Shown here piece after piece: positions 8,273 through 31,859 of a DNA stretch of 64,000 bases (positions within the stretch are counted from its first letter, which is position 1; every line of letters begins with the position of its first letter). A program made the translations under genes and the position numbers. Source of the stretch: Candidatus Moranbacteria bacterium GW2011_GWE2_35_2-. Its GTDB lineage: Bacteria > Patescibacteriota > Minisyncoccia > Moranbacterales > UBA9337. The stretch is from the NCBI GenBank assembly GCA_000990585.1, contig LBQD01000001.1:62965-126964 (forward strand), written 5' to 3'. The notes under the pieces were generated by a model. It did no database searches. It saw only the letters and a list, made by a program, of their open reading frames with translations, and was not told the DNA's origin.

Positions 8273-8638
8273 ATGATACAAGCAGAGACAAAATTAAGAG
8301 TTGCGGATAATTCAGGCGCGAAAGTGATTGAATGTTTTAAAGTTTTAGGAGGAAGCCGTCGAAGGTATGCCTATGTTGGAGATGTTATAGTGGCATCTGT
8401 AAAATCATCCGAGCCGAGAGGATCGGTTAAAAAAGGTGATAAGGTAAAAGCTCTTATTGTGAGACAAAAGCAATCATTGCGAAGAAAAGACGGATCACAT
8501 ATTAGATTTGATGAAAATGCGGCTGTGATTGTGGAAGGGATAGAGCCGAAAGGAACGCGTGTATTTGGTCCTATTGCCAGAGAAGTAAAGGAGAAGGGAT
8601 TTAGTAAGATAGCGTCATTGGCAGTTGAAGTATTATAG
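8273..8638 (+). CDS. rplN: 50S ribosomal protein L14
   Basis: [17 protein letters not shown]... Confidence 0.95.
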
Positions 8639-8664
8639 AAATATATAACGATTAGAGTAATTAT

Positions 8665-8973
8665 ATGAAGATAAAAAAGGGAGATAAAGTTCAAATAATT
8701 TCCGGAAAAGACAAAGGAAAGAACGGAGTTGTTTTGCGTTCAATTCCGATTCGGGAAAGAATTGTTGTTGAAGGCATAAACATTATTAAAAAGCATTCTC
8801 GAGCGAGAAAAGAAGGAGAAAAAGGAACGCGAGTTGAAATTCCTGTTTCCATTTCTATTTCCAATGCGATGCTGGTTTGTCCTAAATGTGAAAAATCAAC
8901 CAGAGTCGGATATAAAATCGTAGATGAAAAAAAGTTTAGAATATGTAAGAAATGTAAAGAAGAAATTCAATGA
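8665..8973 (+). CDS. rplX: 50S ribosomal protein L24 with a C-terminal CxxC...CxxC zinc ribbon
   Basis: MKIKKGDKVQIISGKDKGK.. KOW motif; CPKC...CKKC. Confidence 0.88.
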   Translation: MKIKKGDKVQIISGKDKGKNGVVLRSIPIRERIVVEGINIIKKHSRARKEGEKGTRVEIPVSISISNAMLVCPKCEKSTRVGYKIVDEKKFRICKKCKEEIQ

Positions 8974-9512
8974 AAATAACACCGCTTAAAACTAAATATA
9001 AAGAAATAGTTTCTGAAATGAAAAAAGAATTTGGATATTCGAATGTTATGGCTGTCCCAATAATTCAGAAAGTTGTTGTTAATGTTGGAATCGGAAAGAT
9101 AAATAAAGAGAATGATAAAATTGAAGAATTACTTGTCGCTTTGGAGGCTATTACGGGGCAAAAACCAGTGAAAACTCGCGCCAAGAATTCAATTGCTGGA
9201 TTTAAAACGAGAAAGGGAATGGAGATTGGAGTAAAAGTTACTTTGCGTGGTGAGAAGATGTGGAGTTTTCTCGATCGATTGATTAATGTTGCTTTTCCAA
9301 GAACGAGAGATTTTCAGGGAATAAAAATAAGCGGAGTTGACGAGTATGGAAATTTTAGCGTTGGAATCAAGGAGCATCTCGTTTTTCCTGAAATTTCCGC
9401 TGAAAAAACCAAGAATCTGTTTGGACTTCAGATGAATATTCAGACAACCGCGAAAAACAAGAAAGAAGGAGAGAGACTGTTTCAATTATTGAAGTTTCCA
9501 TTTTATAAATAA
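8970..9512 (+). CDS. rplE: 50S ribosomal protein L5
   Basis: ...ITGQKPV.TRAK.SIA.FK.R.GM.IG.KVTLRG..M..FLDRL. Confidence 0.93.
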   Translation: MKITPLKTKYKEIVSEMKKEFGYSNVMAVPIIQKVVVNVGIGKINKENDKIEELLVALEAITGQKPVKTRAKNSIAGFKTRKGMEIGVKVTLRGEKMWSFLDRLINVAFPRTRDFQGIKISGVDEYGNFSVGIKEHLVFPEISAEKTKNLFGLQMNIQTTAKNKKEGERLFQLLKFPFYK

Positions 9513-9554
9513 TATAATTTTTTTCAAATAATTAAGGAAGTTTAAGCTAAAAAA

Positions 9555-9740
9555 ATGGCAAAAAAATCAACCCAAGCAAGAGCAAAAAAGACACCTAAAT
9601 TTTCCACTCGAGAAGTGAGACGTTGTTGGAAATGTGGAAGAAAAAATGGATATTTGAGAAAATTTGATATTTGCCGAATTTGTTTTCGGGAATTGGCAAG
9701 TAAAGGAGAAATTCCAGGAATAAAAAAGAGCAGTTGGTAA
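9555..9740 (+). CDS. rpsZ: 30S ribosomal protein S14 type Z (zinc-binding)
   Basis: 61 aa; CWKCGR...CRIC. Confidence 0.9.
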
Positions 9741-9825
9741 TAAAATGTTAAAATGTTTAAAACGTTAAAGCCGTTATAAACGATTAGAACGTATAGAACA
9801 AATTAGAACAAATTAGAACAAACTT
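9741..9825. repeat. Spacer with a tandem 11-nt repeat (acaaattagaa x ~3) and a palindromic gttaaaatgtttaaaacgttaaa segment
   Basis: agaacaaattagaacaaattagaacaaac is read directly. Confidence 0.6.
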
Positions 9826-10236
9826 ATGTTAGATCCAATCAGTGACATGTTAACAAGAATCAGAAACGCCCAAACGGCAGGTCGAAGCGTTGTTAGAGTG
9901 CCTTCTTCAAAGGTAAAGTTTGCGGTTGCGAAAATTTTAAAGGAAGAAGGTTTTGTCAGTGCGGTTGAACTTATGAAAACAGATAAAAAATTTGATTTTA
10001 TGGAAATATCTCTGAAATATGATTTTGATAAGGATACCAATCTGAAAGTTCCCGTTATTAGTGGAATTCAAAGAATAAGTAAGGAAGGACAGAGAATTTA
10101 TGTGAAAAAAGGAGAAATTCGCAGAGTGAAAAATGGTATGGGAGTTTCAATAATTTCAACGTCAAAGGGTGTTGTTTCAGGAGAAAAAGCGCGAAAAGAT
10201 GGACTGGGAGGAGAATTAATTTGTGAAGTTTGGTAA
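9826..10236 (+). CDS. rpsH: 30S ribosomal protein S8
   Basis: DPISDMLTRIRNA... Confidence 0.93.
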   Translation: MLDPISDMLTRIRNAQTAGRSVVRVPSSKVKFAVAKILKEEGFVSAVELMKTDKKFDFMEISLKYDFDKDTNLKVPVISGIQRISKEGQRIYVKKGEIRRVKNGMGVSIISTSKGVVSGEKARKDGLGGELICEVW

Positions 10237-10278
10237 TATATCAGACGAATAAGCCTAATATAAGATGTATCTAAATTT

Positions 10279-10818
10279 ATGAGCAGAATAGGAAAAAAAC
10301 CGATTGAAATAGTTTCTGGAGTCGAGGTTAAAGTTGAATCCAATACTGTTTCAGTAAAAGGAGCCAAAGGAAATTTGGAGTTTGTTTTTCGTCCGGAAGT
10401 TTCTGTTAAAGTTGAGGATAATTTGGTCAAGGTTGAGAGAAAGGCCAAATCAAAATTAGGATCTTCTTTATGGGGAACAACCAGTAGGATTATAGCGAGC
10501 ATGATTAAAGGAGTTTCCGAAGGATTTGAAAAAAAATTGGAGCTTAATGGGGTGGGATATCGTATGGAAGTTGCTGGGAAAAAAATAAAATTGGCCTTGG
10601 GATTCTCTCATCCGGTAGAAGTTGAAATTCCGGAGGGGATTAGCGCTTCAATTGAGAAAAATGTTATGATTATTTGCGGGATTGATAAGCAGAAAGTTGG
10701 ACAATTTGCAACTAATATTCGCGCGCTCAAGCCGGTAGAGCCGTATAAAGGAAAAGGTTTTAAATATGTTGGAGAAATTGTCAGACGAAAAGAAGGGAAG
10801 AAAGCATCATCTGATTAA
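10279..10818 (+). CDS. rplF: 50S ribosomal protein L6
   Basis: MSRIGKKPIEI..GV.V......V.VKG.KG.L. Two L6 domains. Confidence 0.93.
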   Translation: MSRIGKKPIEIVSGVEVKVESNTVSVKGAKGNLEFVFRPEVSVKVEDNLVKVERKAKSKLGSSLWGTTSRIIASMIKGVSEGFEKKLELNGVGYRMEVAGKKIKLALGFSHPVEVEIPEGISASIEKNVMIICGIDKQKVGQFATNIRALKPVEPYKGKGFKYVGEIVRRKEGKKASSD

Positions 10819-10856
10819 GCCGTTTAGTTTAGTATCACTATCATATAATTACAATT

Positions 10857-11207
10857 ATGAATAAAAAAAGCATATTAAGATATCAAAGGAGAAAAAAGGT
10901 TCGCGCTAAAATATCCGGGACTGCTAAGAGTCCGCGTCTTTCTGTTTTTAGAAGTTTGCGAGGAGTTTATGTTCAGGCTATTGACGATCAAAATGGAAAA
11001 ACGATAGCGTCTGCTCAATGGAAAGAGGCAGTGGGGAAAGCTAAAAGGAATAATATCGAAAGAGCTAAAGAGGTTGGAAAGTTGATAGCAGAGAAATGCT
11101 TGAAATTGAATGTTTCCAAAGCGGTTTTTGATAGAAATGGATATAAATATCATGGAAAGATTAAGGCTGTGGCTGAAGGTGCCCGCGAGGGAGGATTAAA
11201 GTTTTAA
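10857..11207 (+). CDS. rplR: 50S ribosomal protein L18
   Basis: PRLSVFRSLR..YVQAIDD..G.T... Confidence 0.9.
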   Translation: MNKKSILRYQRRKKVRAKISGTAKSPRLSVFRSLRGVYVQAIDDQNGKTIASAQWKEAVGKAKRNNIERAKEVGKLIAEKCLKLNVSKAVFDRNGYKYHGKIKAVAEGAREGGLKF

Positions 11208-11273
11208 AATTCTTTATGAATTACTAATTAAGTGTTAATATACTAATTACGAATTTTACAATTTTTATAATTT
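11208..11273. repeat. Second copy of the ~35-nt AT-rich element (aattactaatt-N8-atatactaattac) between rplR and rpsE
   Basis: gaattactaattaagtgttaatatactaattacgaatt. Compare 7247-7280: aattactaatttatttacgaatatactaattac. Confidence 0.6.
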
Positions 11274-11786
11274 ATGGATAAAAATAAGGAAAAAAAGGGG
11301 AATAAATTTGGCAGAAAACGAAAGGAAAAGCCCGAATTTGATCAGAAACTATTGGATTTAGCTAGAGTTACTCGTGTGGTTAAAGGTGGGCGCCGTTTTC
11401 GATTCCGAGCCACATTAGTTATCGGAGACCGAAAAGGACGAGTTGGTGTTGGTGTTGCCAAGGGTGCCGATGTTTCTGACGCAATTGGTAAAGCGCTTAA
11501 TGATGCTAAGAAAAAACTTATTACTGTTAATATTGTAAAAGGAACTTTGCCGCATGATGTTTCTTGTAAATTGGGAAGCGCAAAAGTTTTAATAAAACCG
11601 GCGACCAAAGGGCGTGGTATTGTTGCCGGAGGAGCGGTGCGGGCGGTTATGGATTTGGCAGGTGTGCATGATGTCGTTTCAAAGTCTCTCGGAACTTCAA
11701 ATAAGTTGAATGTAGCGCGAGCAACAGTAGCAGCTTTGAAACAGTTGAAAATAACACCATTAAGGAAAATGTCTGCGGAAAAATAA
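11274..11786 (+). CDS. rpsE: 30S ribosomal protein S5
   Basis: ...RVTRVVKGGRRFRFRALVVIGD..G.VG.G..KG.DV..AI.KA.... Confidence 0.93.
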   Translation: MDKNKEKKGNKFGRKRKEKPEFDQKLLDLARVTRVVKGGRRFRFRATLVIGDRKGRVGVGVAKGADVSDAIGKALNDAKKKLITVNIVKGTLPHDVSCKLGSAKVLIKPATKGRGIVAGGAVRAVMDLAGVHDVVSKSLGTSNKLNVARATVAALKQLKITPLRKMSAEK

Positions 11787-11825
11787 TTTTTTATCAAGTA
11801 GTAGGATTTTGTAAAATTCAAAGTT

Positions 11826-12386
11826 ATGCAAATACACGAATTAAAAGTTAAAGCAAAGAAAAGCAGAAAGCGTATTGGACGCGGAGGTAAAAGAGGAACT
11901 TATTCCGGAAAAGGAAATAAGGGGCAGAAGGCGCGATCAGGAGGTAATGTCGATCCTTTGTTTGAAGGAGGAAGATCTTCTTTGGTTGATCGTTTAAAAA
12001 AAGTGCGCGGTTTTAAATCGATTGTTTCGAAAAAATTGGTATTGGGATTGGATGTTTTGGAAAACAAATTTGTCGATGGGGAAACTGTAAATTTAAAAAC
12101 TTTGGTGGCGAAAAAAGTTTTTCGTGAGAGTGAAATAAAAAATGGAGTAAAAATTTTGGGAAATGGAGAAATTACCAAGAAAATTTTAGTAGATGGTGAA
12201 ATTTTAACTTCTGATTCGGCAAAGACGGCTATTATAAAGGCGGGAGGAAAAGTTGCGGGAGAATCAAAACGAGGAAGAGAAAGAATAGCGGATAAGATGA
12301 GAAATATAGAAAAAAAAGCGGAAAAGAAAATTGAGGAAAAAATAGAGAAAAAGCCTAAAAAAAAGACAATAGCAAAAAAGAAATAG
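11826..12386 (+). CDS. rplO: 50S ribosomal protein L15 with a K/E-rich C-terminal tail. No L30 gene lies between rpsE and rplO
   Basis: RKRIGRGGKRGTYSGKGNKGQKARSG... Confidence 0.9.
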   Translation: MQIHELKVKAKKSRKRIGRGGKRGTYSGKGNKGQKARSGGNVDPLFEGGRSSLVDRLKKVRGFKSIVSKKLVLGLDVLENKFVDGETVNLKTLVAKKVFRESEIKNGVKILGNGEITKKILVDGEILTSDSAKTAIIKAGGKVAGESKRGRERIADKMRNIEKKAEKKIEEKIEKKPKKKTIAKKK

Positions 12387-12411
12387 TATAGTTAAAATCA
12401 CTTCATATACA

Positions 12412-12443
12412 AAAATCCTGATCAAAAGTCAGGATTTTTGTTT
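12412..12443 (+). terminator. Rho-independent terminator after rplO
   Basis: AATCCTGA-tcaaaag-TCAGGATT followed by TTTTGTTT. Confidence 0.75.
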
Positions 12444-22454: not shown

Positions 22455-22561
22455 TTTAAAAATAAAAATGACAATTAAAAACTTTAAATTATAATAAGTT
22501 TTTTAATATTGTATAATTTTTTTAAATTTGATATTTGCATTTTGAATTTAGCGAATTGATT

Positions 22562-22759
22562 ATGTGTCTTGCTTATCCCGGAAAAATTAAATCAATAAAA
22601 AACGGTTTGGCAACCGTTGATTTTGATGGTATTGAAAAAGAAGTGAATGTTTCTTTGGTGGATGCTAAAAAAGGAGACTATGTAATTGTCCATGCCGGAT
22701 TTGCGATTGAAGTTATGGATAAAAAAACAGGAGAAGATAGTCAGGAAATATTTAAATAA
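22562..22759 (+). CDS. hypC: [NiFe]-hydrogenase maturation chaperone HypC/HupF
   Basis: Begins MCLAYPGKI (conserved N-terminal Cys2). The tracked ORF starts 27 nt upstream, but HypC requires Met-Cys. Confidence 0.8.
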   Translation: MCLAYPGKIKSIKNGLATVDFDGIEKEVNVSLVDAKKGDYVIVHAGFAIEVMDKKTGEDSQEIFK

Positions 22760-23797
22760 ATGAGAATGCAACAAAAATTAATCAGTGAAATTAATAAACT
22801 GGCCAGGGAGATTGGGCGAGGGGTGAACTTAATGGAAGTTTGCGGGACGCATACGCAAGCAATCAGTCGAAACGGAATTCGTCAAATTTTGCCCGAAAAT
22901 ATCAATTTGATTACCGGACCGGGATGTCCGGTTTGTGTTAGTTCGCAAAAAGACATTGATGCAATTGTAAGTTTGGCACTGGCGGGAATTCCGGTGGCGA
23001 CATATGGCGATGTCCTTCGCGTTGCGGGAAGATTTGGCAGTTTGGATGATGCGCGCGAAAAAGGTGCGCGAGTTTTCGGCGTGTATGATGTTGTCGAGGC
23101 ACTGGCTTTGCAAAAAAAATATCCAAACTTGGTTTTTTTCGGATTGGGATTCGATACGACAACGCCAATGACTGCTTGGGCAATTAAGAAAGGTTTAATG
23201 GTTTATTCTTCTCATAAAATTTTTATTCCGGCGATGCAAGCACTTTTGGATTTAGGCGAAGTGAATATTGATGGATTTATTGATCCGGGACATGTTAGCG
23301 CTATAATCGGCAGTAAACCGTATGAAATTCTTGGAGTTGCGCAAGTAATAACCGGATTTGAAGCGCAGGATATTTTGGAAGGAATTTTAATGTTACTCGC
23401 GCAAATAAAAGATGGACGAAAGGAAGTAGAAAATCAATATCAAAGAGTGGTGAAAAAAGAAGGAAATAGGAAGGCGCGAAATTTGATTTTTGAAGTTTTT
23501 GAAATTAGTGATGGTAATTGGCGAGGTTTTGGAAAAATTCCTGGTTCCGGATTGGAAATAAAAAAAGAATTTTCGCATTTTGACGCGAAAGTGAAATATA
23601 AAAATATTTTAGACAAAGTTGATTTTTCACTTTCCAAAGAGCCATTGGGATGCCGGTGTGGCGAGGTGGTGAGAGGTTTGATTTTACCAAAAAAATGTCC
23701 AATGTTCGGGAAAAAATGCACACCAGAAAATCCTATTGGACCGTGCATGGTTTCATTGGAGGGTGCATGTCATAATTTTTTTTCATCGAAAAATTAG
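22760..23797 (+). CDS. hypD: [NiFe]-hydrogenase maturation protein HypD
   Basis: MEVCGTHT, GPGCPVCV, and a C-terminal Cys cluster CRCGE...CPMFG..C. Confidence 0.88.
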   Translation: MRMQQKLISEINKLAREIGRGVNLMEVCGTHTQAISRNGIRQILPENINLITGPGCPVCVSSQKDIDAIVSLALAGIPVATYGDVLRVAGRFGSLDDAREKGARVFGVYDVVEALALQKKYPNLVFFGLGFDTTTPMTAWAIKKGLMVYSSHKIFIPAMQALLDLGEVNIDGFIDPGHVSAIIGSKPYEILGVAQVITGFEAQDILEGILMLLAQIKDGRKEVENQYQRVVKKEGNRKARNLIFEVFEISDGNWRGFGKIPGSGLEIKKEFSHFDAKVKYKNILDKVDFSLSKEPLGCRCGEVVRGLILPKKCPMFGKKCTPENPIGPCMVSLEGACHNFFSSKN

Positions 23798-23816: not shown

Positions 23817-24878
23817 TTATTGTTGCATTTTTAATTTGATATCTTCTTCCATTAGCGCATCAATAATTTTTTCTATTTCTCCATCTAAAATTGACGGTAA
23901 ATTGCTCCAATTTTGTTTGATGCGATGGTCGGTGACGCGGTCTTGCGGGAAATTGTAGGTTCTTATTTTTTCACTGCGGTCGCCAGTTCCAATTTGGCTT
24001 TTTCTGGCATCTCCCAATTCTTTAGCTCTTTTATCCTGCTCAATTTGAACCAAGCGAGACCGCAGAACTTTCATTGCTTTATCTTTATTTTTATGCTGTG
24101 ATTTTTCATCTTGACAAGAAACAATCAGTCCGGTAGGAAGGTGAGTGATGCGAATGGCGGATTTGGTTGTGTTGACCGATTGACCTCCCGGTCCAGATGA
24201 GCAGAAGGTATCGATGCGCAAATCTTTTTCATCGATTTTGAATTCTACTTCTTCGATTTGAGGAAGTACGGCAACAGTGGCAGTAGAAGTATGAATTCTC
24301 CCCATTTTTTCTGTTTCTGGGGTTCTCTGAACGCGGTGTACTCCGGATTCATATTTCATTTTTCCAAAAACGTTTGTTCCGATTATTTCAAAAATAACTT
24401 CCTTAAAACCGCCAATTCCAGTTTGATTGGAACTCATAAGAGAAATTTTCCATCCCTGATTTTCCGCAAATCGAGAGTACATACGAAATAGATCTCCGGC
24501 AAAAAGCGCAGATTCATCTCCGCCGGCGCCGGCGCGAATTTCTACGATAACGTCTTTGTTGTCGTTAGGATCTTTGGGAAGTAGCATTTGCTCCAATTTT
24601 TTATCCAGTTCATCTTTTTTTGGAGAAAGTTTGATATTTTCGTCCATCGCCATTTGTTTCATTTCTGGGTCAGTTTCTGTGTTTACGATTTGGGCATTTT
24701 CCCGCATTTCCTTCTTGATTTTTTCCAATTCGAAAATTACACCGATTATTTCGGTCATTTCCGCTTGTCTTTTACCTAGCTCGGCCATTTTTTTCATATC
24801 GGAAACTATTTCAGGAGAATTGAGTTTTTCTTGGATTTCAGCATATTCGTTTTTAATAACTTGTATTTTATGTTGCAT
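23817..24878 (-). CDS. prfA: Peptide chain release factor 1
   Basis: GGQ motif (SGPGGQSVN) and a PxT-type tripeptide (RTPET), not SPF. Confidence 0.88.
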
Positions 24879-25003
24879 AGAAATAGCATTTTTTATATAT
24901 TTATTCTGATTATTAAGTATATTAGAATTATACCACTAAGTCAATTTTGCATATAGTAAAATAAAAAACAGACGACTTTTTCGGTGCGTCTGTTTTTATG
25001 ATA

Positions 25004-28000
25004 TTAGGAATTTTTTCTTTCGAAAAGATAATAGAGAATAGGGAAGACTAATAGAGTGAGAAGTGTTGAAGCGGTGAGACCAAAGACGATCGCCCAAGCT
25101 AAACCTTCCCAAACCGGGTCGGCGACGATTGTGAGTGAACCGAGGATGGCGGTGAGTGAAGTGAGAATGATCGGCAAAAGGCGGATGCGTCCAGTTTCAA
25201 CTAAGGCATCTTTGAGCGGCAAACCTTTCTTTCGGAGCGGTTCCAAATACTCCAAATAGATAATGGCGTTTTTAACCGCTAAGCCGGACAGAGCAATGAC
25301 GCCGATCATTGAAGTTGCATTGAAATAGGTACCTTTTATAATTCCTAGAAAGGCAAACCCTGGTAAAACTCCGATGAGCGAAAGTGGGATACTACCCATA
25401 ATAAGAAGCGGGATGATTAATGATTCGGTTTGGGCGGCAACAACGAAATAAATGAGGAATATAACAAGAGCCATCACAATGCCGAGATCGCGAAAAACTT
25501 CCAATGTAAGTTTCCATTCCCCGTCGATCATAACAGAATATTGCTCTCCTGTTTCCGTATCGGTATATGTTACTCCGAATGGAGTCCATGTAGTTTTTGT
25601 TTCTTGGGCGTTCGGTAATTTGTAGGCTAGCAATTTTGGGAAAATATCTAATACGGCATAAACTACGCTTCGGTCTTCCATTTCCGCCGAAATGGAAGCG
25701 GTTTTTTGGCGTTCGTCGGTGTAAATTATACTGTCTTTTTCTGCTTCGGTTTTAAGAAGAAGTTCGGGTAGAGGAATCGGTGTTCCGTCGGCGCTTAGGA
25801 TGGTTAGACGATTGAAATTTTCCGCGAATTCACGGTCTTTCTTGTCTAAACGGACAATGATTTGCTCTTGATCATTTGTTTGGCCAAGATTGTCGTCACG
25901 GCGGTGATAAACGCCTATTGGTAAGCCGTGCAATTCGAGAAAAAGCATTTGATTGATAGCGCTTGGTGCGATGCCTAATTGTTGAGATTTCTCAATATTT
26001 ACTCGGTAAGATTGGTCATAATTTTGTTCCAAAATGGATGTGTCTAAATCAACGACACCGTCGATTTCGGAAACAGTTTTCTTGATGTCTCGAGCGATAG
26101 CAGTTATTTTTTTAGTATCTTCTCCTTGTACTTTGAGAAAAAGCGTCGCTAAGACCGGTGGTCCTGGTGGATCCTCGATGATTTTAATATTGGCGTCTGG
26201 ATGCTCTTCGGAAAATTTCAAGGAAATATCCCTGATGTCAGAGGCGATATCTTCACTGGTTGTGTCCCTTTCTTCTGGATGGGTTAGATTTATTTTTAAT
26301 GTTGCTTGATTTTGCTGGACGCGGAACGAACTGCCTTTGAAGAGTCCGTTAAAATCGACGATTTGCGATTGTCCGACAAAACTTTCCACACTTTTGATAT
26401 TTTCTTGAGTAAGGATATTTTTTTCCAATTTAGTAGAAAGCAGTGCAGTTTTTTCAATATTAGTTCCGTCCGGTAGATCTAAATATAGATAAAATTGTTC
26501 TTTGTCGGCTTTGGGAAGCATTCTAAATTTTACTATTTTGACAAGCGGCAGGGAAAGTGAAAAAATAATGGCGAAAGCGGTGCTGGCGATAAATATATTC
26601 CGAGCTTTTGATTGGTCAAGTAATATTCTAATGGTTTTAGCATAGGACGTTTCAATTTTTTTGATTACGCGGTCGATGAAATTGGTTTTTTTTTCATGAA
26701 TACTTTCTTTATGTAATAGGTGGGCGAAAAACGGATTAAGGGTGACGGCGAAAAGTAAAGAAGCTGCTAGTGCTACTGGTACGAAAAAGGGAATTGGTCC
26801 AATGTAAGGTCCCATCATTCCAGTTACAAACGCCATTGGAACAAAAGCCAAAATCATCGTGAGAGTGGACATAAAAAGTGCTGAACCAACTTCGTCTACG
26901 GCGAGAACTACGGTTTCTGTTTTATTTAATCCTAATTTCATCCGGAAATAGCGGTTGATATTTTCTACGACCACAATCGCGTCATCTACTAAAAGTCCGA
27001 GAGAGAGGATGAGCGCGAAAAGTGTGATGCGGTTAATTGTTTCGCCAAAAACATTTCCGATGGCGAAAACGGCGAAAAGGATTAATGGGATGACTAAGGA
27101 AATAATAAGCGCACTTCGAAATCCCAATATTAGAAGAATGACCGCACCGACGATAGCGATTGATTTAGCAAGTTCGATTGATAATTTGGTGATTTCTTCG
27201 CTGGCAGTTGCGCCTTCGTTGCGAAGGATTTTGGTTTTTATTTCTTTTGGAAGGGAAGAATTTTTAATTTCATCCAGCTTGGTAATAACATTTTCTGCGA
27301 TCGTGGTGGCGTTAGTGCCTTTTAATTTGGAAATGGCGATATAAACTACCGGTTGGGCGGAGCCGTTATCTTCTTTTTCTCGCAAGCGGACGTAGTTAGT
27401 GATTTCTCCCGGTCCGTAATCGACAGTAGCGACATCGGATATGCGAATAATGGAAGAGTTTTGTGAACGAATGATGATGTTTTCCAATTCTGTTGCGTCG
27501 CGAATATTTCCGTCAACGGTCAAAATGGAATTATAATTGTCGTTTTTGAAAGTATGTACGCCGTAATTTCCGTTGGCTGATTGAATGGCTTGGACGATTT
27601 CAAAAGGGGAAATTTCAAGAGCGGTAAGTTTTCCGACATCCAAAGATACATTGAGGTTGTTGATACGACCGCCTTTGATTTCGATTTTGGAAGTTCCTGA
27701 AACTTGTTTGAGATTGTCGGATATTTCAATTGCTGCTTTGCGTAAAGCCTGCTCGGAAAATTCATCTGAAAAAAGACCGATGGAGATAATTGGCACGTCC
27801 TCAGAATCCATTGTTTGGACGATTGGTTCGGAAGCTCCGGAAGGTTTCAATTGAATATTATCTCGTAGTTTTTGATTAAGGGTGGTTTTGGCTTTTTCTA
27901 AATCGGCGCCGACATAAAATTTGACAACTACGACGCTTTTCCCGCCGGAAAATGATTGGGAGGATATTTCATCCACTTCCGGGATTTCCTTGAGGACGTC

Positions 28001-28240
28001 TTCCATTTTGCGAGTGATTAATTCGAAAACTTCTTGACTGGTGGCATTGGGAAAATCAGTTGAGATAATGAAGGCCGGTGCAACGATTTCCGGATTGTAT
28101 TGTTTAGGCATTAGGATAAAACTCACGATACCCCACGCGGCAATGATGAGTATAGAAAGGATGCTCAATTCTCGATTATTGAGAAAAAGGCGTGTGATTT
28201 TGCCTGAGATGCCCAAGGTGTTTTTTTTATTATTATTCAT
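25004..28240 (-). CDS. RND superfamily efflux permease (AcrB/CusA-like, 12 TM plus two large periplasmic loops)
   Basis: 1078 aa. Architecture and conserved TM4/TM10 regions match RND pumps. Confidence 0.88.
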   Translation of the reverse strand: MNNNKKNTLGISGKITRLFLNNRELSILSILIIAAWGIVSFILMPKQYNPEIVAPAFIISTDFPNATSQEVFELITRKMEDVLKEIPEVDEISSQSFSGGKSVVVVKFYVGADLEKAKTTLNQKLRDNIQLKPSGASEPIVQTMDSEDVPIISIGLFSDEFSEQALRKAAIEISDNLKQVSGTSKIEIKGGRINNLNVSLDVGKLTALEISPFEIVQAIQSANGNYGVHTFKNDNYNSILTVDGNIRDATELENIIIRSQNSSIIRISDVATVDYGPGEITNYVRLREKEDNGSAQPVVYIAISKLKGTNATTIAENVITKLDEIKNSSLPKEIKTKILRNEGATASEEITKLSIELAKSIAIVGAVILLILGFRSALIISLVIPLILFAVFAIGNVFGETINRITLFALILSLGLLVDDAIVVVENINRYFRMKLGLNKTETVVLAVDEVGSALFMSTLTMILAFVPMAFVTGMMGPYIGPIPFFVPVALAASLLFAVTLNPFFAHLLHKESIHEKKTNFIDRVIKKIETSYAKTIRILLDQSKARNIFIASTAFAIIFSLSLPLVKIVKFRMLPKADKEQFYLYLDLPDGTNIEKTALLSTKLEKNILTQENIKSVESFVGQSQIVDFNGLFKGSSFRVQQNQATLKINLTHPEERDTTSEDIASDIRDISLKFSEEHPDANIKIIEDPPGPPVLATLFLKVQGEDTKKITAIARDIKKTVSEIDGVVDLDTSILEQNYDQSYRVNIEKSQQLGIAPSAINQMLFLELHGLPIGVYHRRDDNLGQTNDQEQIIVRLDKKDREFAENFNRLTILSADGTPIPLPELLLKTEAEKDSIIYTDERQKTASISAEMEDRSVVYAVLDIFPKLLAYKLPNAQETKTTWTPFGVTYTDTETGEQYSVMIDGEWKLTLEVFRDLGIVMALVIFLIYFVVAAQTESLIIPLLIMGSIPLSLIGVLPGFAFLGIIKGTYFNATSMIGVIALSGLAVKNAIIYLEYLEPLRKKGLPLKDALVETGRIRLLPIILTSLTAILGSLTIVADPVWEGLAWAIVFGLTASTLLTLLVFPILYYLFERKNS

Positions 28241-28252
28241 ATACTGGAAAAA

Positions 28253-29398
28253 TTAATAAATTACTGTATCGCCAGCGTGGATTTCATGAATTCCTTCTGT
28301 GATGACGATGTTTCCCGGTTCTAATCCGGAAACAATTTCTATTTGTCCAGCGTTGGTTTTTCCGACTGTGACTTTTTTCTTGTGAACAATTTTATCTTGA
28401 ATGATAAAAATAAAAGAATCTCCGAATTCATATAAAAGGGCATTTTCCGGAACAATAAGCGCCTTTTTGGAATTTTCCAGTGGAAGTTGCGCGCAGATGT
28501 AGTCTCCAATTGAAATAGAATGTGATGTGTTTTCTTTGGTACGCAAGCGAATGATTCCATTTTGATTTGCAAAATTAGTGAAAGCACTTTTAGCATATAT
28601 AAGACCAATTGTGGAGATGGAATTTTCTTTAGTAAGAAATATTTCTTGATTGATTGATAATTTTTCGATGATATTTTTTGGTGCGGAAATTTCGATCTCA
28701 GCTGTGTCGAGAGCGGATAGGGAATAGAGCGGGGTTCCGGCGATGACGAAAGTTCCAATTGTTATGTGGCGGCGAGTGATCGTTCCGGAGAAAGGTGCGC
28801 GGATAGTTTGTTTTTGTGCATAGTTGTCGGCAATCGATTGTTGATTTTCGATTTCAGAAACTTGGATGCGAGTGGAGGAAATTTGCAGATCGCGGGTGCG
28901 TCTGGCACTTTTAACCGATTCTTCGGCTAAAAACACATCCTTTTTAGTGGCGTTGCCATTATCAAAATCTTTTTCGATTTTTTTAAGTGCAGCTTTGGCT
29001 TCGTCGACTTTCTGATCATATAGTTTTTCGGTGTCGACAGCGGACTTTTTTGCGTTGTTTGAAACTTGCGCCAAACCGCGTGCGTTTGCGCTGATTGTTG
29101 AGTCGTCGATGATAGCTAGTATTTCGCCGGCACGGACTAAGTCGCCTTCATTTTTGAAAAGTTGCCGGACCATGCCGTTTATTTCCGGGGTTATTTCTGT
29201 ACGGTTTTTGCCGACTGCGAAAGCACAGTACGAGTTTTCGGGCAAAAATTCAGAAAGCGCGATAGGGGTCGCAATCACTTTTTTAGCAGGATTGCTATTC
29301 GCTACTACGGTTTTGGGTGAGGTATTGTGAAAGAATAAAAAAGTGCCACTTATACCGGCGATTGCGACAAACATAAAGAGAGACTTATTTTTAAGCAT
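28253..29398 (-). CDS. RND efflux membrane-fusion (periplasmic adaptor) protein
   Basis: N-terminal TM, lipoyl/beta-barrel MFP pattern (...NGMVRQLFKNEGDLVRAGEILAIIDD...). Immediately upstream of the pump. Confidence 0.8.
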   Translation of the reverse strand: MLKNKSLFMFVAIAGISGTFLFFHNTSPKTVVANSNPAKKVIATPIALSEFLPENSYCAFAVGKNRTEITPEINGMVRQLFKNEGDLVRAGEILAIIDDSTISANARGLAQVSNNAKKSAVDTEKLYDQKVDEAKAALKKIEKDFDNGNATKKDVFLAEESVKSARRTRDLQISSTRIQVSEIENQQSIADNYAQKQTIRAPFSGTITRRHITIGTFVIAGTPLYSLSALDTAEIEISAPKNIIEKLSINQEIFLTKENSISTIGLIYAKSAFTNFANQNGIIRLRTKENTSHSISIGDYICAQLPLENSKKALIVPENALLYEFGDSFIFIIQDKIVHKKKVTVGKTNAGQIEIVSGLEPGNIVITEGIHEIHAGDTVIY

Positions 29399-29422
29399 AT
29401 TTTTTTAAAATATAAAATTAGA

Positions 29423-29710
29423 TTATTTGTTTTGTGCAGTACGGATTATTTTCAGGATTTCTGTTTGCATTGTTTCAAAGTTGCGTCGCGACAGTTTATT
29501 TTTATTGGCGCTGTCAAGATGCTGTTGCATATAACTTTCCAGCATCAAGAGATTAGTGTTTTTTAGCAGACCGATAATCGCCAAATTTTGTTGAATAATA
29601 GAAAAGCAATTTTTTTCTTGCTCGACCATCGGGATTATTTTTTCCAGTGAAGTCCGAGCTTTTTTGAGAGCAATAAGGATTCTCTCTTTATTTGCGGTTG
29701 ATTTTTTCAT
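29423..29710 (-). CDS. CsoR/RcnR/FrmR-family metal-sensing transcriptional repressor (DUF156)
   Basis: 95 aa; all-helical ...EQEKNCFSIIQQNLAIIGLL...LESYMQQHLD pattern with conserved Cys/His positions. Confidence 0.65.
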   Translation of the reverse strand: MKKSTANKERILIALKKARTSLEKIIPMVEQEKNCFSIIQQNLAIIGLLKNTNLLMLESYMQQHLDSANKNKLSRRNFETMQTEILKIIRTAQNK

Positions 29711-29741
29711 AGTGATATTATTTTGTTTAATGAATTAAACT

Positions 29742-29760
29742 CCTATACCTAGGGTATAGG
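29742..29760. promoter_or_regulatory. Perfect 8-3-8 palindrome CCTATACC-tag-GGTATAGG immediately upstream of the CsoR-like gene (candidate operator)
   Basis: Read directly; resembles CsoR-type TACC-N-GGTA operators; TATAAT follows at 29761. Confidence 0.55.
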
Positions 29761-29947
29761 TATAATAAAGCAGATATTTTTATTTGTCAAATTTTAAGAA
29801 AAAAACAATATATTCCTAATTAAGGAACGTTTTTATATTATGATGGAAGATAATAATATCAATTATTTTAAAAAATAATTGAACTTCTATGCGATAGTGT
29901 AAAAGTTTAATGGAGTTTTTTTTGTTTAAATGCGTGAGTTGTTGAAT

Positions 29948-29982
29948 TAAAAAACGCTTCGAAATATTTTGTGAGCGTTTTT
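29948..29982. terminator. Bidirectional rho-independent terminator (A-run, AACGCT stem/AGCGTT, T-run)
   Basis: aaaaaacgct...agcgtttttt; lies downstream of the minus-strand gene ending at 30049. Confidence 0.55.
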
Positions 29983-30048
29983 TAAATCAGACTAATTTTT
30001 TTGGTGCGTAGTTTCCCTTAAGAGCTGTTTGGCGGTTTGATTTTAATT

Positions 30049-30873
30049 TTATTCGGAAGGGTTTGTTTTTTCTTCCGTTGTTTTATTTGAAACAAATTCT
30101 TTCCATACATCAAATCCTCCGTCAAGTGTTTTTGCTGTGAGTATTCCTAGATCAAAAAGTTTTGATCCAGCTTGAAAACTTTCAATCGCATCTTGCCCAT
30201 AGACGATAATTTCTTTAAATTTTGGTATTTCTTCTTCGCGTGCTTCCAATTCGGAAAGCGGAATATTTATAGAATTATGAATGCTTTCAGTGTTAAAAAG
30301 TGATGAATCGCGAACATCTAAAATAAAAAGCGGGGCATTATTGTTTAATGCGACTTGAAATTCTGTCGGAGATATGTAGATAACTTTCGATTGGTCGGAG
30401 ATAGAGCTTGGATCTCCTGTGGAAATTGTAGAGAAAAGGTTTTCCGTCCATCCCTCAATTCCATTATACAAAACTGAAATATTTGAAAACCCGTTTCTTT
30501 CAAGCAGTTTCACTGAATCAGAAATATTTTTTTTACTTTCAGGGTAGGCAATTATGATTATTTCCTTTTTTGAGTCTAAAATATCGCCTTTTTTTTGAAG
30601 ATCATCATTGGGAATGTTTATTGAATTTGCAATGTGTTCTATTTCAAAATCTGCATTACTGCGTAAATCAAGAATTTGAATGTTTTCTTTTTGTTTGATT
30701 TTTTCGCTCAATTCTTTGGGATAGATAATTGAGTAATCAGTGGGAGTTTCCGTCGGAGAATTGATTATGTTTTTTTCTTTTTTTCCCGGGCGGATAAATG
30801 TAATAAGAAAAACTATTCCAATTAGAATAATTCCAATGAGAACAATATAATTTTCTTTGTTGTTTTTTTGCAT
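30049..30873 (-). CDS. Membrane-anchored tandem rhodanese-like domain protein, apparently lacking catalytic Cys
   Basis: N-terminal TM. Two rhodanese-fold segments, with no Cys at either active-site loop position. Confidence 0.6.
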   Translation of the reverse strand: MQKNNKENYIVLIGIILIGIVFLITFIRPGKKEKNIINSPTETPTDYSIIYPKELSEKIKQKENIQILDLRSNADFEIEHIANSINIPNDDLQKKGDILDSKKEIIIIAYPESKKNISDSVKLLERNGFSNISVLYNGIEGWTENLFSTISTGDPSSISDQSKVIYISPTEFQVALNNNAPLFILDVRDSSLFNTESIHNSINIPLSELEAREEEIPKFKEIIVYGQDAIESFQAGSKLFDLGILTAKTLDGGFDVWKEFVSNKTTEEKTNPSE

Positions 30874-30893
30874 CGGATTAGTTTAATTTAGCA

Positions 30894-31859
30894 TTATTTC
30901 AAAATACTGCCGATAAAATCAGGATGTCCGTTGGAAAAATCTTTTGCCGATATTGAATCTTTCCCTTCTAATTGGATCTGGCTTAATATAATTACTCCAT
31001 TTCCGGTTTGCACGCCGATTTCTTCTCCGATTTGAAAAATTTCTCCTAGTCGGTGTCGACTCTGTGGATTTGTTTTTTGTAGAGAAATTTTATTGAGTTT
31101 TATTCTTTTTGTTAATCCATTTTCATCCCAAAAGGAAAAAATTCCCGGCCATGGATGGAATGCGCGATAGCGATTATAGATATCTTGTGCATCATTGTCC
31201 CAGATTATTTTTCCATCAGAACGCTCAATGAGTTGGCAGAGAGTAACTTTGGATGGGTCTTGTTTAACGGGGGATATTTTTTTTTCAATCCAGAGCGGAA
31301 TGGTTTTCAGAAGTGTTTCGGCGCCTTTATTTTTCAGTTTTTCCATTAAAATAGGCGTTGTATCATTCTGATCGATGGAAATTTTTTCTTGCGATAAAAT
31401 ATCTCCGGTATCCATTCCTCTGTCCATAAGCATAATAGTTATTCCGGTTTTGCTTTCTCCGGACAAAATTGCGTTTTGAATAGGGGATGCTCCGCGGAAT
31501 TTAGGTAAAAGAGAGGCATGTACGTTTATGGATCCGAACCCGGGAATTTCTAAGGCTTTTTCCGGAAGAATTTTTCCATAAGCGGCAACTATAACTAAAT
31601 CTGGTTTCAGTTCTTTTAAGGATAAAACCGCTTGTTCGTCGAATTTTTCCGGCTGGATTACGGGTATGTTGTTTTTTTCCGCCAATATTTTTACGGGGCT
31701 GGGCGTGAATTCATTTTTACGTCCAGATTTTTTGTCCGGTTGAGTAAAAACAGCAAGAATGTTATATTTTTCTTCCAGTAAGGATGAGAGTATTTTTTCA
31801 GCAAAGGACGGCGTTCCCATAAAAACAACCCTTAATTTAATTGGCTTTTTTTCTTTCAT
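30894..31859 (-). CDS. fmt: Methionyl-tRNA formyltransferase
   Basis: RVVFMGTPSFA...INVHASLLPKFRGASPIQ. Confidence 0.92.
   Translation of the reverse strand: MKEKKPIKLRVVFMGTPSFAEKILSSLLEEKYNILAVFTQPDKKSGRKNEFTPSPVKILAEKNNIPVIQPEKFDEQAVLSLKELKPDLVIVAAYGKILPEKALEIPGFGSINVHASLLPKFRGASPIQNAILSGESKTGITIMLMDRGMDTGDILSQEKISIDQNDTTPILMEKLKNKGAETLLKTIPLWIEKKISPVKQDPSKVTLCQLIERSDGKIIWDNDAQDIYNRYRAFHPWPGIFSFWDENGLTKRIKLNKISLQKTNPQSRHRLGEIFQIGEEIGVQTGNGVIILSQIQLEGKDSISAKDFSNGHPDFIGSILK

What the first reader, a model, noticed from the sequence alone, without database searches (positions are those of the whole stretch)
25004..29790. CsoR-type repressor with a perfect palindromic operator controlling an RND pump plus membrane-fusion protein
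The small gene 29423-29710 has CsoR/RcnR-like helical architecture and conserved Cys/His positions. Immediately upstream lies CCTATACC-tag-GGTATAGG, resembling CsoR TACC-N-GGTA-type operators. The downstream operon is MFP plus a 1078-aa RND permease with no outer-membrane factor, consistent with a metal (Cu/Ni/Co) or aldehyde-responsive efflux system in a probably monoderm cell.
Basis: partly seen in the sequence, partly recalled or inferred. Interest (0 to 1): 0.5.

Follow-up and report, generated by a model that had tools for sequence, protein, structure and literature searches.

The report
CsoR-family repressor controlling an efflux pump
A small copper-sensor-type repressor with a conserved DNA binding site controls its own gene and a two-part drug-type efflux pump in an ultra-small groundwater bacterium, but the repressor has lost most of its copper-binding residues, so its signal is probably not the usual copper.

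Summary
On the minus strand a 95-aa CsoR/RcnR-family protein (29710..29423), a membrane-fusion protein (29398..28253) and a 1078-aa RND permease (28240..25004) form a tight operon. The best sigma-70 promoter of the region precedes it, and the palindrome CCTATACC-N3-GGTATAGG starts two bases after the -10 hexamer.

The palindrome is the core of a 25-bp box (ATACCTATACC-N3-GGTATAGGTAT). That box recurs at the same promoter position in 25 of 28 orthologous loci that have upstream sequence. Regulator-MFP-RND synteny holds in 29 genome loci, mostly Moraniibacteriota (candidate phyla radiation).

The metal/aldehyde reading is not supported. The fingerprint is x-Cys35-Tyr60-His64. FrmR's Pro2, RcnR's His3 and CstR's second Cys are absent.

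The RND-linked regulators form one clade (bootstrap 439/500). The clade lost the Cu(I)-sensor second-shell Tyr34 (0/30) and mostly Cys64 (5/30), and keeps only Cys35-Phe36 invariant. Sister regulators are invariant Tyr-Cys…His…Cys…Glu (51/51) and mostly sit next to copA.

The pump carries AcrB's proton relay. It lacks the CusA methionine triad and has no adjacent outer-membrane factor.

Verdict: a real module and a new variant of a known kind, with the inducer unknown. Interest is moderate.

The parts
29785..29790 (-). -35 hexamer TTGACA of the operon promoter
   Evidence: best promoter-like site in 24800-31000 (11 of 12 matches). It is invariant across five related loci whose surrounding DNA does not align. 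A TTGAC-type -35 is present in 22 of 25 orthologous promoters scored.
29762..29767 (-). -10 hexamer TATTAT, 17-nt spacer from the -35
   Evidence: Its last two bases overlap the outer left half-site of the operator.
29739..29763 (-). 25-bp operator ATACCTATACC-CTA-GGTATAGGAGT. The inner perfect palindrome is 29742-29760. The outermost right half-site is degenerate in this genome (GGAGT instead of GGTAT).
   Evidence: Exact and unique in the window. The consensus ttATAcCTATACCataGGTATAGGTATA was derived from 25 of 28 RND-linked loci, with the centre 27-58 nt (one at 105 nt) before the regulator ATG. The centre lies -1 to +16 nt from the end of the -10 in 22 of 23 loci with a good promoter. It carries TAC/GTA dyads like experimentally defined CsoR-family sites (PMC3902906, PMC10318464). 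Binding is inferred, not shown.
29423..29710 (-). CsoR/RcnR-family repressor, 95 aa; fingerprint x-Cys35-Tyr60-His64; a single Cys in the protein
   Evidence: PF02583 at 43.8 bits. phmmer hits to Mtb CsoR, FrmR and Tth CsoR. AF2 pLDDT 88.6 with three helices. The top 17 Foldseek PDB matches are all family members. Fingerprint read against E. coli RcnR and FrmR and Mtb CsoR.
28253..29398 (-). Membrane-fusion (periplasmic adaptor) protein, 381 aa; N-terminal membrane anchor, no lipobox Cys
   Evidence: TIGR01730 at 157.7 bits against a cut-off of 94.9; CzcB/NccB TIGR00999 at 102 bits against a cut-off of 319. PF16576 and PF13437. It starts 24 nt after the regulator stop. It follows the regulator in 29 related loci. 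The N-terminal anchor and lack of lipobox Cys were read from the sequence.
25004..28240 (-). RND permease, 1078 aa, HAE-type: AcrB-like proton relay Asp419, Asp420, Lys990, Arg1020, Thr1027
   Evidence: PF00873 at 511 bits. NCBIfam multidrug RND_permease_2 at 419 bits against CusA/CzcA at 269 bits, both below their cut-offs. All 60 listed PDB hits are HAE1 pumps. AcrB 206 bits against CusA 154 bits. Relay residues conserved; CusA M573/M623/M672 correspond to L/Q/A in the multiple alignment (L/G/I in the pairwise BLASTP). It starts 12 nt after the MFP stop.
29943..29989 (-). Terminator-like hairpin plus U-run ending the upstream rhodanese gene; upstream boundary of the unit
   Evidence: -14.3 kcal/mol, z = -5.8, followed by UUUUUUAAUU. 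Its function as a terminator is inferred.

Best explanation
This is an autoregulated three-gene operon: repressor, membrane-fusion protein and RND permease.

How it works:
- The 95-aa CsoR/RcnR-family protein binds a 25-bp box of nested TAC/GTA dyads. By analogy it does so as a tetramer or a pair of tetramers.
- The box runs from the last bases of the -10 hexamer across the transcription start. Binding therefore blocks RNA polymerase.
- An inducer acting at the inter-subunit site around the single, invariant Cys35 releases the repressor. The cell then makes an HAE-type, proton-driven RND exporter with its adaptor.
- The exporter works without an outer-membrane channel, in an envelope that probably has one membrane.

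Origin: the regulator belongs to a Moraniibacteriota-centred clade that branched from the copA-linked Cu(I)-sensing CsoRs of the candidate phyla radiation. The clade kept their operator but dismantled their Cu(I) site.

Most likely inducer: I think it is sensed through Cys35 chemistry, that is, thiol modification by an electrophile, an oxidant or a reactive sulfur species. Tyr60 and His64 would tune the thiol. I think this more likely than canonical trigonal Cu(I) binding, and I expect the pump to export organic or amphiphilic compounds rather than metal ions.

Shown: gene identities, operon structure, promoter and operator conservation, clade structure, residue patterns.
Inferred: DNA binding, repression, the nature of the inducer, the substrate.
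For: Family and fold of the regulator.

Tight operon with gaps of 24 and 12 nt.

Promoter and operator:
- Best promoter with the palindrome abutting the -10.
- Among five related loci only the -35, the -10 and the operator align upstream.
- The operator is present in 25 of 28 RND-linked loci with upstream sequence.
- Its centre lies -1 to +16 nt from the -10 in 22 of 23 loci with a good promoter.

Synteny and clade:
- Regulator-MFP-RND synteny in 29 genome loci (RND 46-87% identical).
- The same synteny in the 2 metagenome loci that were found by the operator alone and carry the 'CF' signature.
- The RND-linked regulators form one clade, bootstrap 439/500.

Sensor residues:
- Canonical class: Tyr34-Cys35...His60...Cys64...Glu84 in 51 of 51. 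A copA-like ATPase lies in 47 of 52 of those loci.
- RND clade: Tyr34 in 0 of 30, Cys35-Phe36 in 30 of 30, Cys64 in 5 of 30, with eight other residues at position 64.
- The window protein has one Cys, Tyr60 and His64.

Pump:
- AcrB relay conserved and CusA Met triad absent; 1.6% Met and 0 Cys.
- PDB and NCBIfam similarity favours HAE over HME.

No riboswitch or other known RNA element in the region.
Against: - No experiment links this protein to this DNA or to any inducer.
- Basal members of the clade (L016, L017, L021, L026) still have Cys-His-Cys. The ancestral RND-linked regulator may therefore have sensed Cu(I).
- Members that lost Cys64 almost always gained Met56 (24 of 25). Met56 could serve as a replacement soft-metal ligand.
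- T. thermophilus CsoR senses Cu with C-H-H (PMC8643695).
- No copA lies near any RND-type locus, and no canonical csoR-copA locus in the set was labelled Moraniibacteriota. The pump might therefore replace copA rather than supplement it.
- A single Cys cannot form the inter-protomer di- or polysulfide used by CstR.
- The pump scores below every curated NCBIfam subfamily cut-off, so the substrate class is only a similarity argument.
Confidence: 0.55

Rival explanations
1. The regulator is still a soft-metal sensor, for Cu(I) or Ag(I). Its site has been remodelled: Cys35 with His60 or His64, and Met56 taking the place of Cys64. The RND system is the copper-stress effector of Moraniibacteriota and stands in for the CopA ATPase.
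For: - The clade descends from Cu(I) CsoRs and keeps their operator.
- Basal members keep C-H-C.
- Met56 is present in 24 of 25 members without Cys64, but in only 1 of 5 members with Cys64 and in 2 of 51 canonical regulators.
- Cys35 is invariant and His60 is present in 24 of 30.
- None of the 47 copA-linked loci is labelled Moraniibacteriota.
- In metagenome locus L148 a canonical CsoR box lies between csoR-dsbD-copA and a divergent ZIP-MFP-RND cluster.
- A C-H-H variant is known to sense Cu in Thermus (PMC8643695).
Against: - The second-shell Tyr34 is lost in 30 of 30 members, while it is invariant in 51 of 51 Cu-type sisters.
- Position 64 takes nine different residues, including Ala, Leu and Val. 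That is unlike a constrained ligand.
- In the window protein His60 is Tyr. Met56 and His64 lie two helical turns apart (geometric inference).
- The pump lacks the CusA Met triad and the CusA or CzcA transmembrane motifs. It has 1.6% Met and no Cys.
- The Met56/Cys64 pattern may reflect only one or two evolutionary events.
Confidence: 0.28
2. The regulator binds a pump substrate or another small organic molecule non-covalently, as TetR-type pump regulators do. Cys35-Phe36 and Met56 would line a hydrophobic pocket.
For: - The class-specific changes are hydrophobic: Ile/Val36 to Phe and Leu56 to Met.
- The pump is of the multidrug type.
- Position 64 is variable, which is compatible with a loosely defined pocket.
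Against: - No CsoR-family member is known to sense a ligand non-covalently (my own knowledge, plus the family survey in PMC8643695).
- The small three-helix protomer offers little pocket volume.
- Strict invariance of Cys35 points to chemistry rather than shape.
Confidence: 0.1
3. The palindrome is an RNA hairpin, acting as an attenuator or terminator, and not a protein-binding site.
For: The consensus scan lists it as terminator-like on the minus strand. Some orthologues show symmetric changes in both arms, for example CCTGTACC...GGTACAGG.
Against: - It begins 2 nt after the -10 hexamer, so the predicted transcription start falls inside the left arm and the full hairpin cannot be transcribed.
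- The tail AGTTTAATTC is a poor U-run.
- The conservation is of sequence (TAC/GTA dyads), including outer half-sites, and matches known CsoR-family boxes (PMC3902906, PMC10318464).
- There is no Rfam match.
Confidence: 0.03

Closest known systems
Cu(I)-sensing CsoR (M. tuberculosis, B. subtilis, S. lividans); most closely the copA-linked CsoRs of the candidate phyla radiation found here
   Same: - Same Pfam family and three-helix fold.
- Same X-position Cys.
- Same operator family, with an identical consensus in the copA-linked sisters.
- TAC/GTA dyads as in PMC3902906.
- Same autoregulated arrangement, with the operator overlapping the promoter.
   Different: - His60 is Tyr, Cys64 is His, and the second-shell Tyr34 is Asn.
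- The regulated genes are MFP plus RND, not copZ/copA.
- The operator has no G/C tract of 4 or more bases.
- The dyad spacing is TAC-N11-GTA, with two dyads offset by 6 bp in the clade consensus (the second dyad is degenerate in this genome). The usual spacing is TAC-N9-GTA.
RcnR (E. coli, Ni/Co) and InrS
   Same: Same family. Cys35 and His64 align with the RcnR ligands.
   Different: - No His3 and no His60.
- Only 17% identity to RcnR.
- No rcnA-type exporter nearby.
- The operator is not of the TACT-G6-N-AGTA type (PMC3902906).
FrmR (formaldehyde sensor)
   Same: - It is the best NCBIfam and Foldseek match.
- It shares Cys35 and a non-Cys residue at Z.
- The broader RND clade often reads C-H-E or C-H-T, like FrmR.
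   Different: - Pro2, the partner of the methylene bridge, is absent (N-terminus MKKST).
- His60 is Tyr.
- NF008464 scores 26 bits against a cut-off of 133.
- No frmA/frmB genes are nearby.
CstR and TTHA1953 (thiol-based, reactive-sulfur-responsive CsoR-family repressors)
   Same: - They are non-metal, cysteine-chemistry sensors within the family. This is the mechanism class I favour.
- The TTHA1953 box TACNNTACNNNNGTANNGTA has the same nested-dyad layout and also lacks a G-tract (PMC10318464).
- Rhodanese genes recur near some orthologous operons.
   Different: - There is only one Cys per protomer, so no inter-protomer di- or polysulfide can form.
- The window's rhodanese neighbour has no Cys at all and is a separate transcription unit.
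- The regulated genes are an RND pump, not sulfur-detoxification enzymes.
AcrAB-type HAE1 RND pumps, and RND pumps of monoderm bacteria such as B. subtilis SwrC (the latter from my own knowledge)
   Same: - The TM4 motif GLLVDDAIVVVEN is identical to AcrB's.
- Lys in TM10 and Arg/Thr in TM11 are conserved.
- A membrane-fusion partner is encoded alongside.
   Different: - 25% identity to AcrB.
- Below all curated subfamily cut-offs.
- No outer-membrane factor in the window or in 84 related loci.
- It is controlled by a CsoR-family repressor rather than a TetR, MarR or two-component regulator.

Membership tests
CsoR/RcnR superfamily (PF02583) | Sequence match to the family profile above the curated threshold | tested here: met
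   PF02583 at 43.8 bits against a cut-off of 22.8, E = 3.4e-11.
CsoR/RcnR superfamily (PF02583) | All-helical protomer of three helices, with the sensing Cys at the start of helix 2 | tested here: met
   AF2 pLDDT 88.6; helices 2-30, 35-68 and 75-94; Cys35 is the first residue of helix 2. The top 17 Foldseek PDB hits are FrmR, CsoR, InrS and CstR.
CsoR/RcnR superfamily (PF02583) | Dimer-of-dimers assembly that binds a pseudo-palindromic operator overlapping the promoter | not testable with these tools
   A conserved TAC/GTA operator sits at the -10/+1 region. Oligomeric state and binding need experiments.
Cu(I)-sensing CsoR (x-C-H-C) | First-shell ligands: Cys (X), His (Y), Cys (Z) | tested here: not met
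   Cys35 is present, but Y is Tyr60 and Z is His64.
Cu(I)-sensing CsoR (x-C-H-C) | Second-shell Tyr before the X Cys, and Glu in helix 3 (Mtb Tyr35/Glu81) | tested here: not met
   Asn34 replaces the Tyr. Tyr34 occurs in 0 of 30 members of the RND clade and in 51 of 51 canonical sisters. Glu84 is kept.
Cu(I)-sensing CsoR (x-C-H-C) | Genomic link to copA/copZ | tested here: not met
   No copA-like hit in the window or in any of the 30 RND-type loci. 47 of 52 canonical loci have one.
RcnR/InrS Ni/Co sensors (H-C-H-H / H-C-H-C) | His3 (W) and His60 (Y) ligands together with Cys35 and His/Cys64 | tested here: not met
   Alignment with E. coli RcnR gives Lys at W and Tyr at Y. Only Cys35 and His64 match.
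FrmR formaldehyde sensors (P-C-H-x) | N-terminal Pro2 that cross-links to Cys35; curated equivalog score | tested here: not met
   The N-terminus is MKKST. NF008464 scores 26.3 bits against a cut-off of 133.
CstR persulfide sensors (x-C-x-C) | Two Cys (X and Z) that form inter-protomer polysulfide links; adjacent sulfurtransferase or sulfide-detoxification genes | tested here: not met
   There is a single Cys in the protein. The neighbouring rhodanese has no Cys and has its own terminator-like hairpin.
HME-RND (CusA/CzcA) | Curated family score; CusA Met573/Met623/Met672 triad; CusA-type relay (single Asp in TM4, Glu939, Lys984) | tested here: not met
   TIGR00914 scores 269 bits against a cut-off of 701. 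The triad positions read L/Q/A in the window (multiple alignment; L/G/I in the pairwise BLASTP) and are never conserved in 27 orthologues. Positions E939 and K984 read Lys and Ile.
HAE1-type RND (AcrB-like) | Proton relay Asp407, Asp408, Lys940, Arg971, Thr978 | tested here: met
   Asp419, Asp420, Lys990, Arg1020 and Thr1027.
HAE1-type RND (AcrB-like) | Curated subfamily score, and a tripartite assembly with an outer-membrane factor | tested here: not met
   RND_permease_2 scores 419 bits against a cut-off of 1250. There is no CusC-like hit in the window or in 84 loci. The pump works like an HAE pump but is not a member of the Gram-negative tripartite set.
RND membrane-fusion proteins (TIGR01730) | Curated subfamily score | tested here: met
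   157.7 bits against a cut-off of 94.9.

The most novel reading that the evidence does not exclude
A lineage of CsoR-family repressors specific to the candidate phyla radiation has abandoned metal sensing. It uses one invariant Cys35-Phe36 unit, tuned by a His/Tyr pair that can swap positions 60 and 64, as a one-cysteine thiol switch for a non-metal signal such as an electrophile, an oxidant or a reactive sulfur species. That switch controls a two-component RND exporter working without an outer-membrane channel in an ultra-small, probably episymbiotic bacterium. This would be a new effector class for the family and the first RND pump known to be controlled by it.
Probability: 0.35. Interest if true: 0.55.

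Novelty: new variant of a known kind. Interest (0 to 1): 0.4.

Why it matters
CsoR/RcnR proteins are a textbook case of one small fold being re-tuned for copper, nickel/cobalt, formaldehyde or persulfide by a few residues.

This clade shows such a re-tuning with both the ancestor and the descendant visible. The operator is unchanged. The copper site is taken apart stepwise: first Tyr34 is lost and Phe36 gained, then Cys64 is lost and Met56 gained, then His60 becomes Tyr. The output is switched from a copper ATPase to a drug-type RND pump.

This gives a defined set of residues to test for what sets effector specificity. It also points to a regulated efflux function in candidate-phyla-radiation bacteria, whose physiology and envelope are poorly known.

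Public records currently name the protein 'metal-sensing transcriptional repressor'. That name probably overstates what is known.

Tried and rejected
- FrmR-like formaldehyde sensing: rejected. There is no Pro2 and the equivalog score is far below the cut-off.
- CstR-like persulfide sensing suggested by the rhodanese neighbour: rejected for this locus. The regulator has one Cys. The rhodanese has no Cys and is separated by a terminator-like hairpin. Rhodanese and YgaP-like genes do recur near other orthologues, so I recorded that as a lead.
- Second copy of the operator: none in the window, and at most one core match (ATACCNNNGGTAT) per orthologous locus, at the regulator promoter; the single exception lies at the start of the RND gene in L007.
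- Metagenome scan with the operator: it mostly returned canonical csoR-copA loci. It confirmed the link between signature and context but found no new regulon member for the RND type.
- Outer-membrane factor: no CusC-like hit.
- Riboswitch or other known RNA in the leader: none.
- Palindrome as proof by itself: rejected. Perfect 8+8 repeats are common in this AT-rich DNA.
- A Biopython bootstrap timed out. I replaced it with a numpy neighbour-joining bootstrap.
- Literature searches found no paper on CsoR-family control of an RND pump or on this clade.


Full report
**What is there**

The window comes from Candidatus Moranbacteria GW2011_GWE2_35_2-, a candidate-phyla-radiation bacterium. The regulator sequence is identical to a protein of that genome. 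On the minus strand three genes follow each other with gaps of 24 and 12 nt:

- A 95-aa protein (29710..29423) that matches Pfam PF02583, 'metal-sensitive transcriptional repressor', at 43.8 bits against a cut-off of 22.8.
- A 381-aa membrane-fusion protein (29398..28253) that matches TIGR01730 at 157.7 bits against a cut-off of 94.9.
- A 1078-aa RND permease (28240..25004) that matches PF00873 at 511 bits.

Upstream lies a rhodanese-domain gene (30873..30049). It ends in a stable hairpin followed by a U-run (-14.3 kcal/mol, z = -5.8). Downstream, prfA has its own promoter-like site. The unit is therefore three genes. No Rfam family matches the region.

**Promoter and operator**

The best sigma-70-like site between 24800 and 31000 is TTGACA-17-TATTAT at 29790..29762 on the minus strand, with 11 of 12 matches. 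The reported palindrome CCTATACC-CTA-GGTATAGG (29760..29742) begins two bases later. It is exact and unique in the window, where 0.04 copies are expected.

A perfect 8+8 inverted repeat is weak evidence on its own. The window holds 31 instances, against a mean of 11.6 in shuffles. The weight comes from comparison with related loci:

- In five related loci (77-87% regulator identity) the upstream DNA does not align except for the -35, the -10 and the operator.
- Of the 28 RND-linked loci with upstream sequence, 25 carry the box ttATAcCTATACCataGGTATAGGTATA. Its centre lies 27-58 nt before the start codon, with one outlier at 105 nt.
- The centre lies -1 to +16 nt from the end of the -10 in 22 of 23 loci with a good promoter.

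The palindrome is therefore the inner part of a 25-bp operator (29763..29739) built from nested TAC/GTA dyads. In the clade consensus these form two TAC-N11-GTA dyads offset by 6 bp. In this genome the outermost right half-site is degenerate (GGAGT for GGTAT), so the second dyad is imperfect.

TAC/GTA dyads are the element that S. lividans CsoR needs for binding, in a TAC-N9-GTA arrangement (PMC3902906). The nested layout without a G-tract resembles the selected site of Thermus TTHA1953, TACNNTACNNNNGTANNGTA (PMC10318464). Repression by promoter occlusion is the straightforward inference.

**The regulator's fingerprint**

Ungapped alignment with M. tuberculosis CsoR and alignment with E. coli RcnR and FrmR give W-X-Y-Z = x-Cys35-Tyr60-His64. 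This departs from each known type:

- CsoR is x-C-H-C.
- RcnR is H-C-H-H.
- FrmR is P-C-H-x.
- CstR is x-C-x-C (PMC8643695).

The protein has one cysteine. It has no His3, and no Pro2, since the N-terminus is MKKST. The FrmR equivalog model scores 26 bits against a cut-off of 133.

The fold is as expected. AlphaFold gives three helices with mean pLDDT 88.6. The 17 best PDB matches are FrmR, CsoR, InrS and CstR.

**Relatives and context**

A scan of one genome per species returned 80 loci, all from candidate-phyla-radiation-like bins. They split cleanly into two groups.

*RND-linked group.* Twenty-nine loci, mostly labelled Moraniibacteriota, keep the order regulator-MFP-RND. RND identity to the window ranges from 46 to 87%.

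*copA-linked group.* Of the other 52 loci, 47 have an HMA-DsbD_2 membrane protein and/or an HMA-containing P1B-type ATPase (copA-like) within the locus, in most cases directly downstream of the regulator. No RND-type locus has these.

*Tree.* In a neighbour-joining tree the RND-linked regulators form one clade together with one orphan, L020. Bootstrap support is 439 of 500. The window's subclade scores 500 of 500.

*Residue patterns*:

| Position | copA-linked class (51) | RND clade (30) |
|---|---|---|
| Tyr34 | 51 | 0 |
| Cys35 | 51 | 30 |
| Position 36 | Ile, Val or Thr | Phe in 30 |
| His60 | 51 | 24 (Tyr in the 6 of the window subclade) |
| Cys64 | 51 | 5 (otherwise His, Tyr, Glu, Ala, Thr, Ser, Leu or Val) |
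| Glu84 | 51 | 24 |

The copA-linked set is the complete first and second shell of a Cu(I) CsoR.

*Order of changes.* The four deepest-branching RND-linked members (L016, L017, L021, L026) keep Cys-His-Cys. This suggests a sequence of steps:
1. Tyr34 was lost and Phe36 gained when the regulator became linked to the pump.
2. Cys64 was then lost. This loss coincides with Leu/Ile56 changing to Met: 24 of 25 members without Cys64 have Met56.
3. In the window subclade His60 became Tyr and position 64 became His.

Seven other members carry the reverse pair, His60 with Tyr64.

*Independent check.* I scanned metagenomes with the operator sequence alone. Sixty of 80 loci had a csoR-like gene within 250 bp. 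Those with Tyr-Cys-(Ile/Val)...His...Cys sat with copA or dsbD. The two with Cys-Phe (L119, L157) sat with MFP and RND.

**The pump**

All 60 listed PDB matches (of 81) are multidrug-type HAE1 pumps (AcrB, MexB, CmeB, MdtB, MexK, TriC-like). No CusA or ZneA entry is among them. BLASTP gives 206 bits and 25% identity to E. coli AcrB, against 154 bits and 23% to CusA. NCBIfam ranks the two multidrug RND models (419 and 392 bits) above CusA/CzcA (269 bits). All of these are below their cut-offs.

In an alignment of 27 orthologues with AcrB and CusA:
- The window protein has the full AcrB relay: Asp419, Asp420, Lys990, Arg1020 and Thr1027.
- Its TM4 reads GLLVDDAIVVVEN, exactly as in AcrB.
- The CusA copper-binding triad Met573/Met623/Met672 corresponds to Leu, Gln and Ala in this multiple alignment (Leu, Gly and Ile in the pairwise BLASTP), and is never conserved among the orthologues.
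- The protein has 1.6% Met and no Cys.

No CusC-like outer-membrane factor is found in the window or in 84 related loci. By sequence, the adaptor has an N-terminal membrane anchor and no lipobox cysteine.

The pump therefore works like an HAE-type proton antiporter. It is not a member of the curated Gram-negative subfamilies, and it shows no metal signature.

**Most likely mechanism**

The apo or reduced repressor sits on the box and blocks the promoter of its own operon. An inducer acting at the inter-subunit site around Cys35 releases it, and the adaptor and pump are then made.

Only Cys35 and Phe36 are under strict constraint, while the former metal ligands drift. I therefore favour a one-cysteine thiol switch with Tyr/His tuning the thiol, responding to an electrophile, an oxidant or a reactive sulfur species. 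I expect an organic or amphiphilic substrate for the pump.

My rough probabilities for the inducer class are:
- thiol-based non-metal signal: 0.4
- remodelled soft-metal site: 0.3
- non-covalent organic ligand: 0.1-0.15
- something else: the remainder

The architecture (autoregulated repressor, operator, MFP-RND operon) is much better supported than the identity of the inducer.

**The main rival**

A Cu(I) or Ag(I) sensor with a Cys35/His/Met56 site cannot be dismissed, for these reasons:
- The clade's ancestry lies among Cu(I) sensors, and it keeps their operator.
- Basal members keep C-H-C.
- Met56 and Cys64 show a complementary pattern.
- Among the fetched loci, Moraniibacteriota bins show only the RND-linked type.
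- In locus L148 a canonical CsoR box lies between csoR-dsbD-copA and a divergent ZIP-MFP-RND cluster.

Against it stand:
- the complete loss of the allosteric Tyr34
- the unconstrained position 64
- the window's own Tyr60
- the absence of a metal signature in the pump

**Comparison and novelty**

The module is a CsoR-family repressor-operator pair of a familiar design. Its combination of features matches none of the described subclasses in the family-wide survey (PMC8643695):
- fingerprint x-C-Y-H (x-C-H-variable in the wider clade)
- loss of the second-shell Tyr
- an invariant Cys-Phe
- an MFP-RND output

I found no paper describing control of an RND pump by this family, or this clade.

I rate it a new variant of a known kind, of moderate interest.

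Noticed in passing
L011:12653-12889 and the equivalent position in 15 other loci (e.g. L014, L016, L018, L019, L021, L022, L024): An ~80-aa membrane protein of the YgaP-like_TM / DUF2892 family (motif TGYCP) directly follows the RND gene in 16 of 29 orthologous loci. The window has none.
   Followed up: partly
RND orthologues in L001-L055; window RND residues Asp420 and Lys990: The AcrB Asp408/Lys940 pair co-varies perfectly. Thirteen pumps have Asp+Lys and 14 have Ser/Ala/Asn+Asn. Thirteen of the 14 altered pumps have the DUF2892 gene downstream, against 3 of the 13 Asp/Lys pumps.
   Followed up: partly
L011:12870-15348; also L022, L024, L029: Downstream of RND-DUF2892 lie a beta-CASP metallo-beta-lactamase-fold protein and a 176-aa rhodanese with a catalytic Cys and a C-terminal membrane segment. 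Rhodanese genes thus recur near these operons in two different arrangements.
   Followed up: partly
window 30049-30873 (- strand): The neighbouring protein has a membrane anchor and two rhodanese domains but no cysteine at all. It cannot be an active sulfurtransferase.
   Followed up: partly
L148:241-10117: In this metagenome locus one canonical CsoR box lies between csoR-dsbD-copA on one strand and a ZIP transporter, a 633-aa MFP and a 1170-aa RND (32% identical to the window pump over its N-terminal half, 24% over the C-terminal half) on the other.
   Followed up: partly
L097:1131-2709, L115:664-1866, L118:12390-13167: Operator boxes with no adjacent csoR gene lie upstream of CopZ-like HMA proteins and proteins with a DLRYINAMIAHH motif (DUF305-like by eye). 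They are probably further members of the copper regulon in candidate-phyla-radiation bacteria.
   Followed up: no
Regulators of L001-L055, alignment positions 56, 60 and 64: Loss of Cys64 goes with Leu/Ile56 changing to Met (24 of 25). His60/Tyr64 in seven loci is mirrored by Tyr60/His64 in the window subclade.
   Followed up: partly
L025 (complete genome CP064994.1), 8287-12422: The MFP and RND genes appear broken into several ORFs. This may be a decaying operon or a set of assembly errors.
   Followed up: no
L020:7977-8258: A regulator of the RND clade (Cys-Phe, His60, Glu64; sister to L013) has no MFP or RND gene within 8 kb. Its downstream genes are on the opposite strand.
   Followed up: no
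window 22535-23797: hypC and hypD hydrogenase-maturation genes lie next to fructose-bisphosphate aldolase in this small genome (Pfam marks).
   Followed up: no
window 29860-29881: An AT-only perfect palindrome, CAATTATTTTAAAAAATAATTG, lies about 70 nt upstream of the -35. It is not conserved in the closest relative L005.
   Followed up: no
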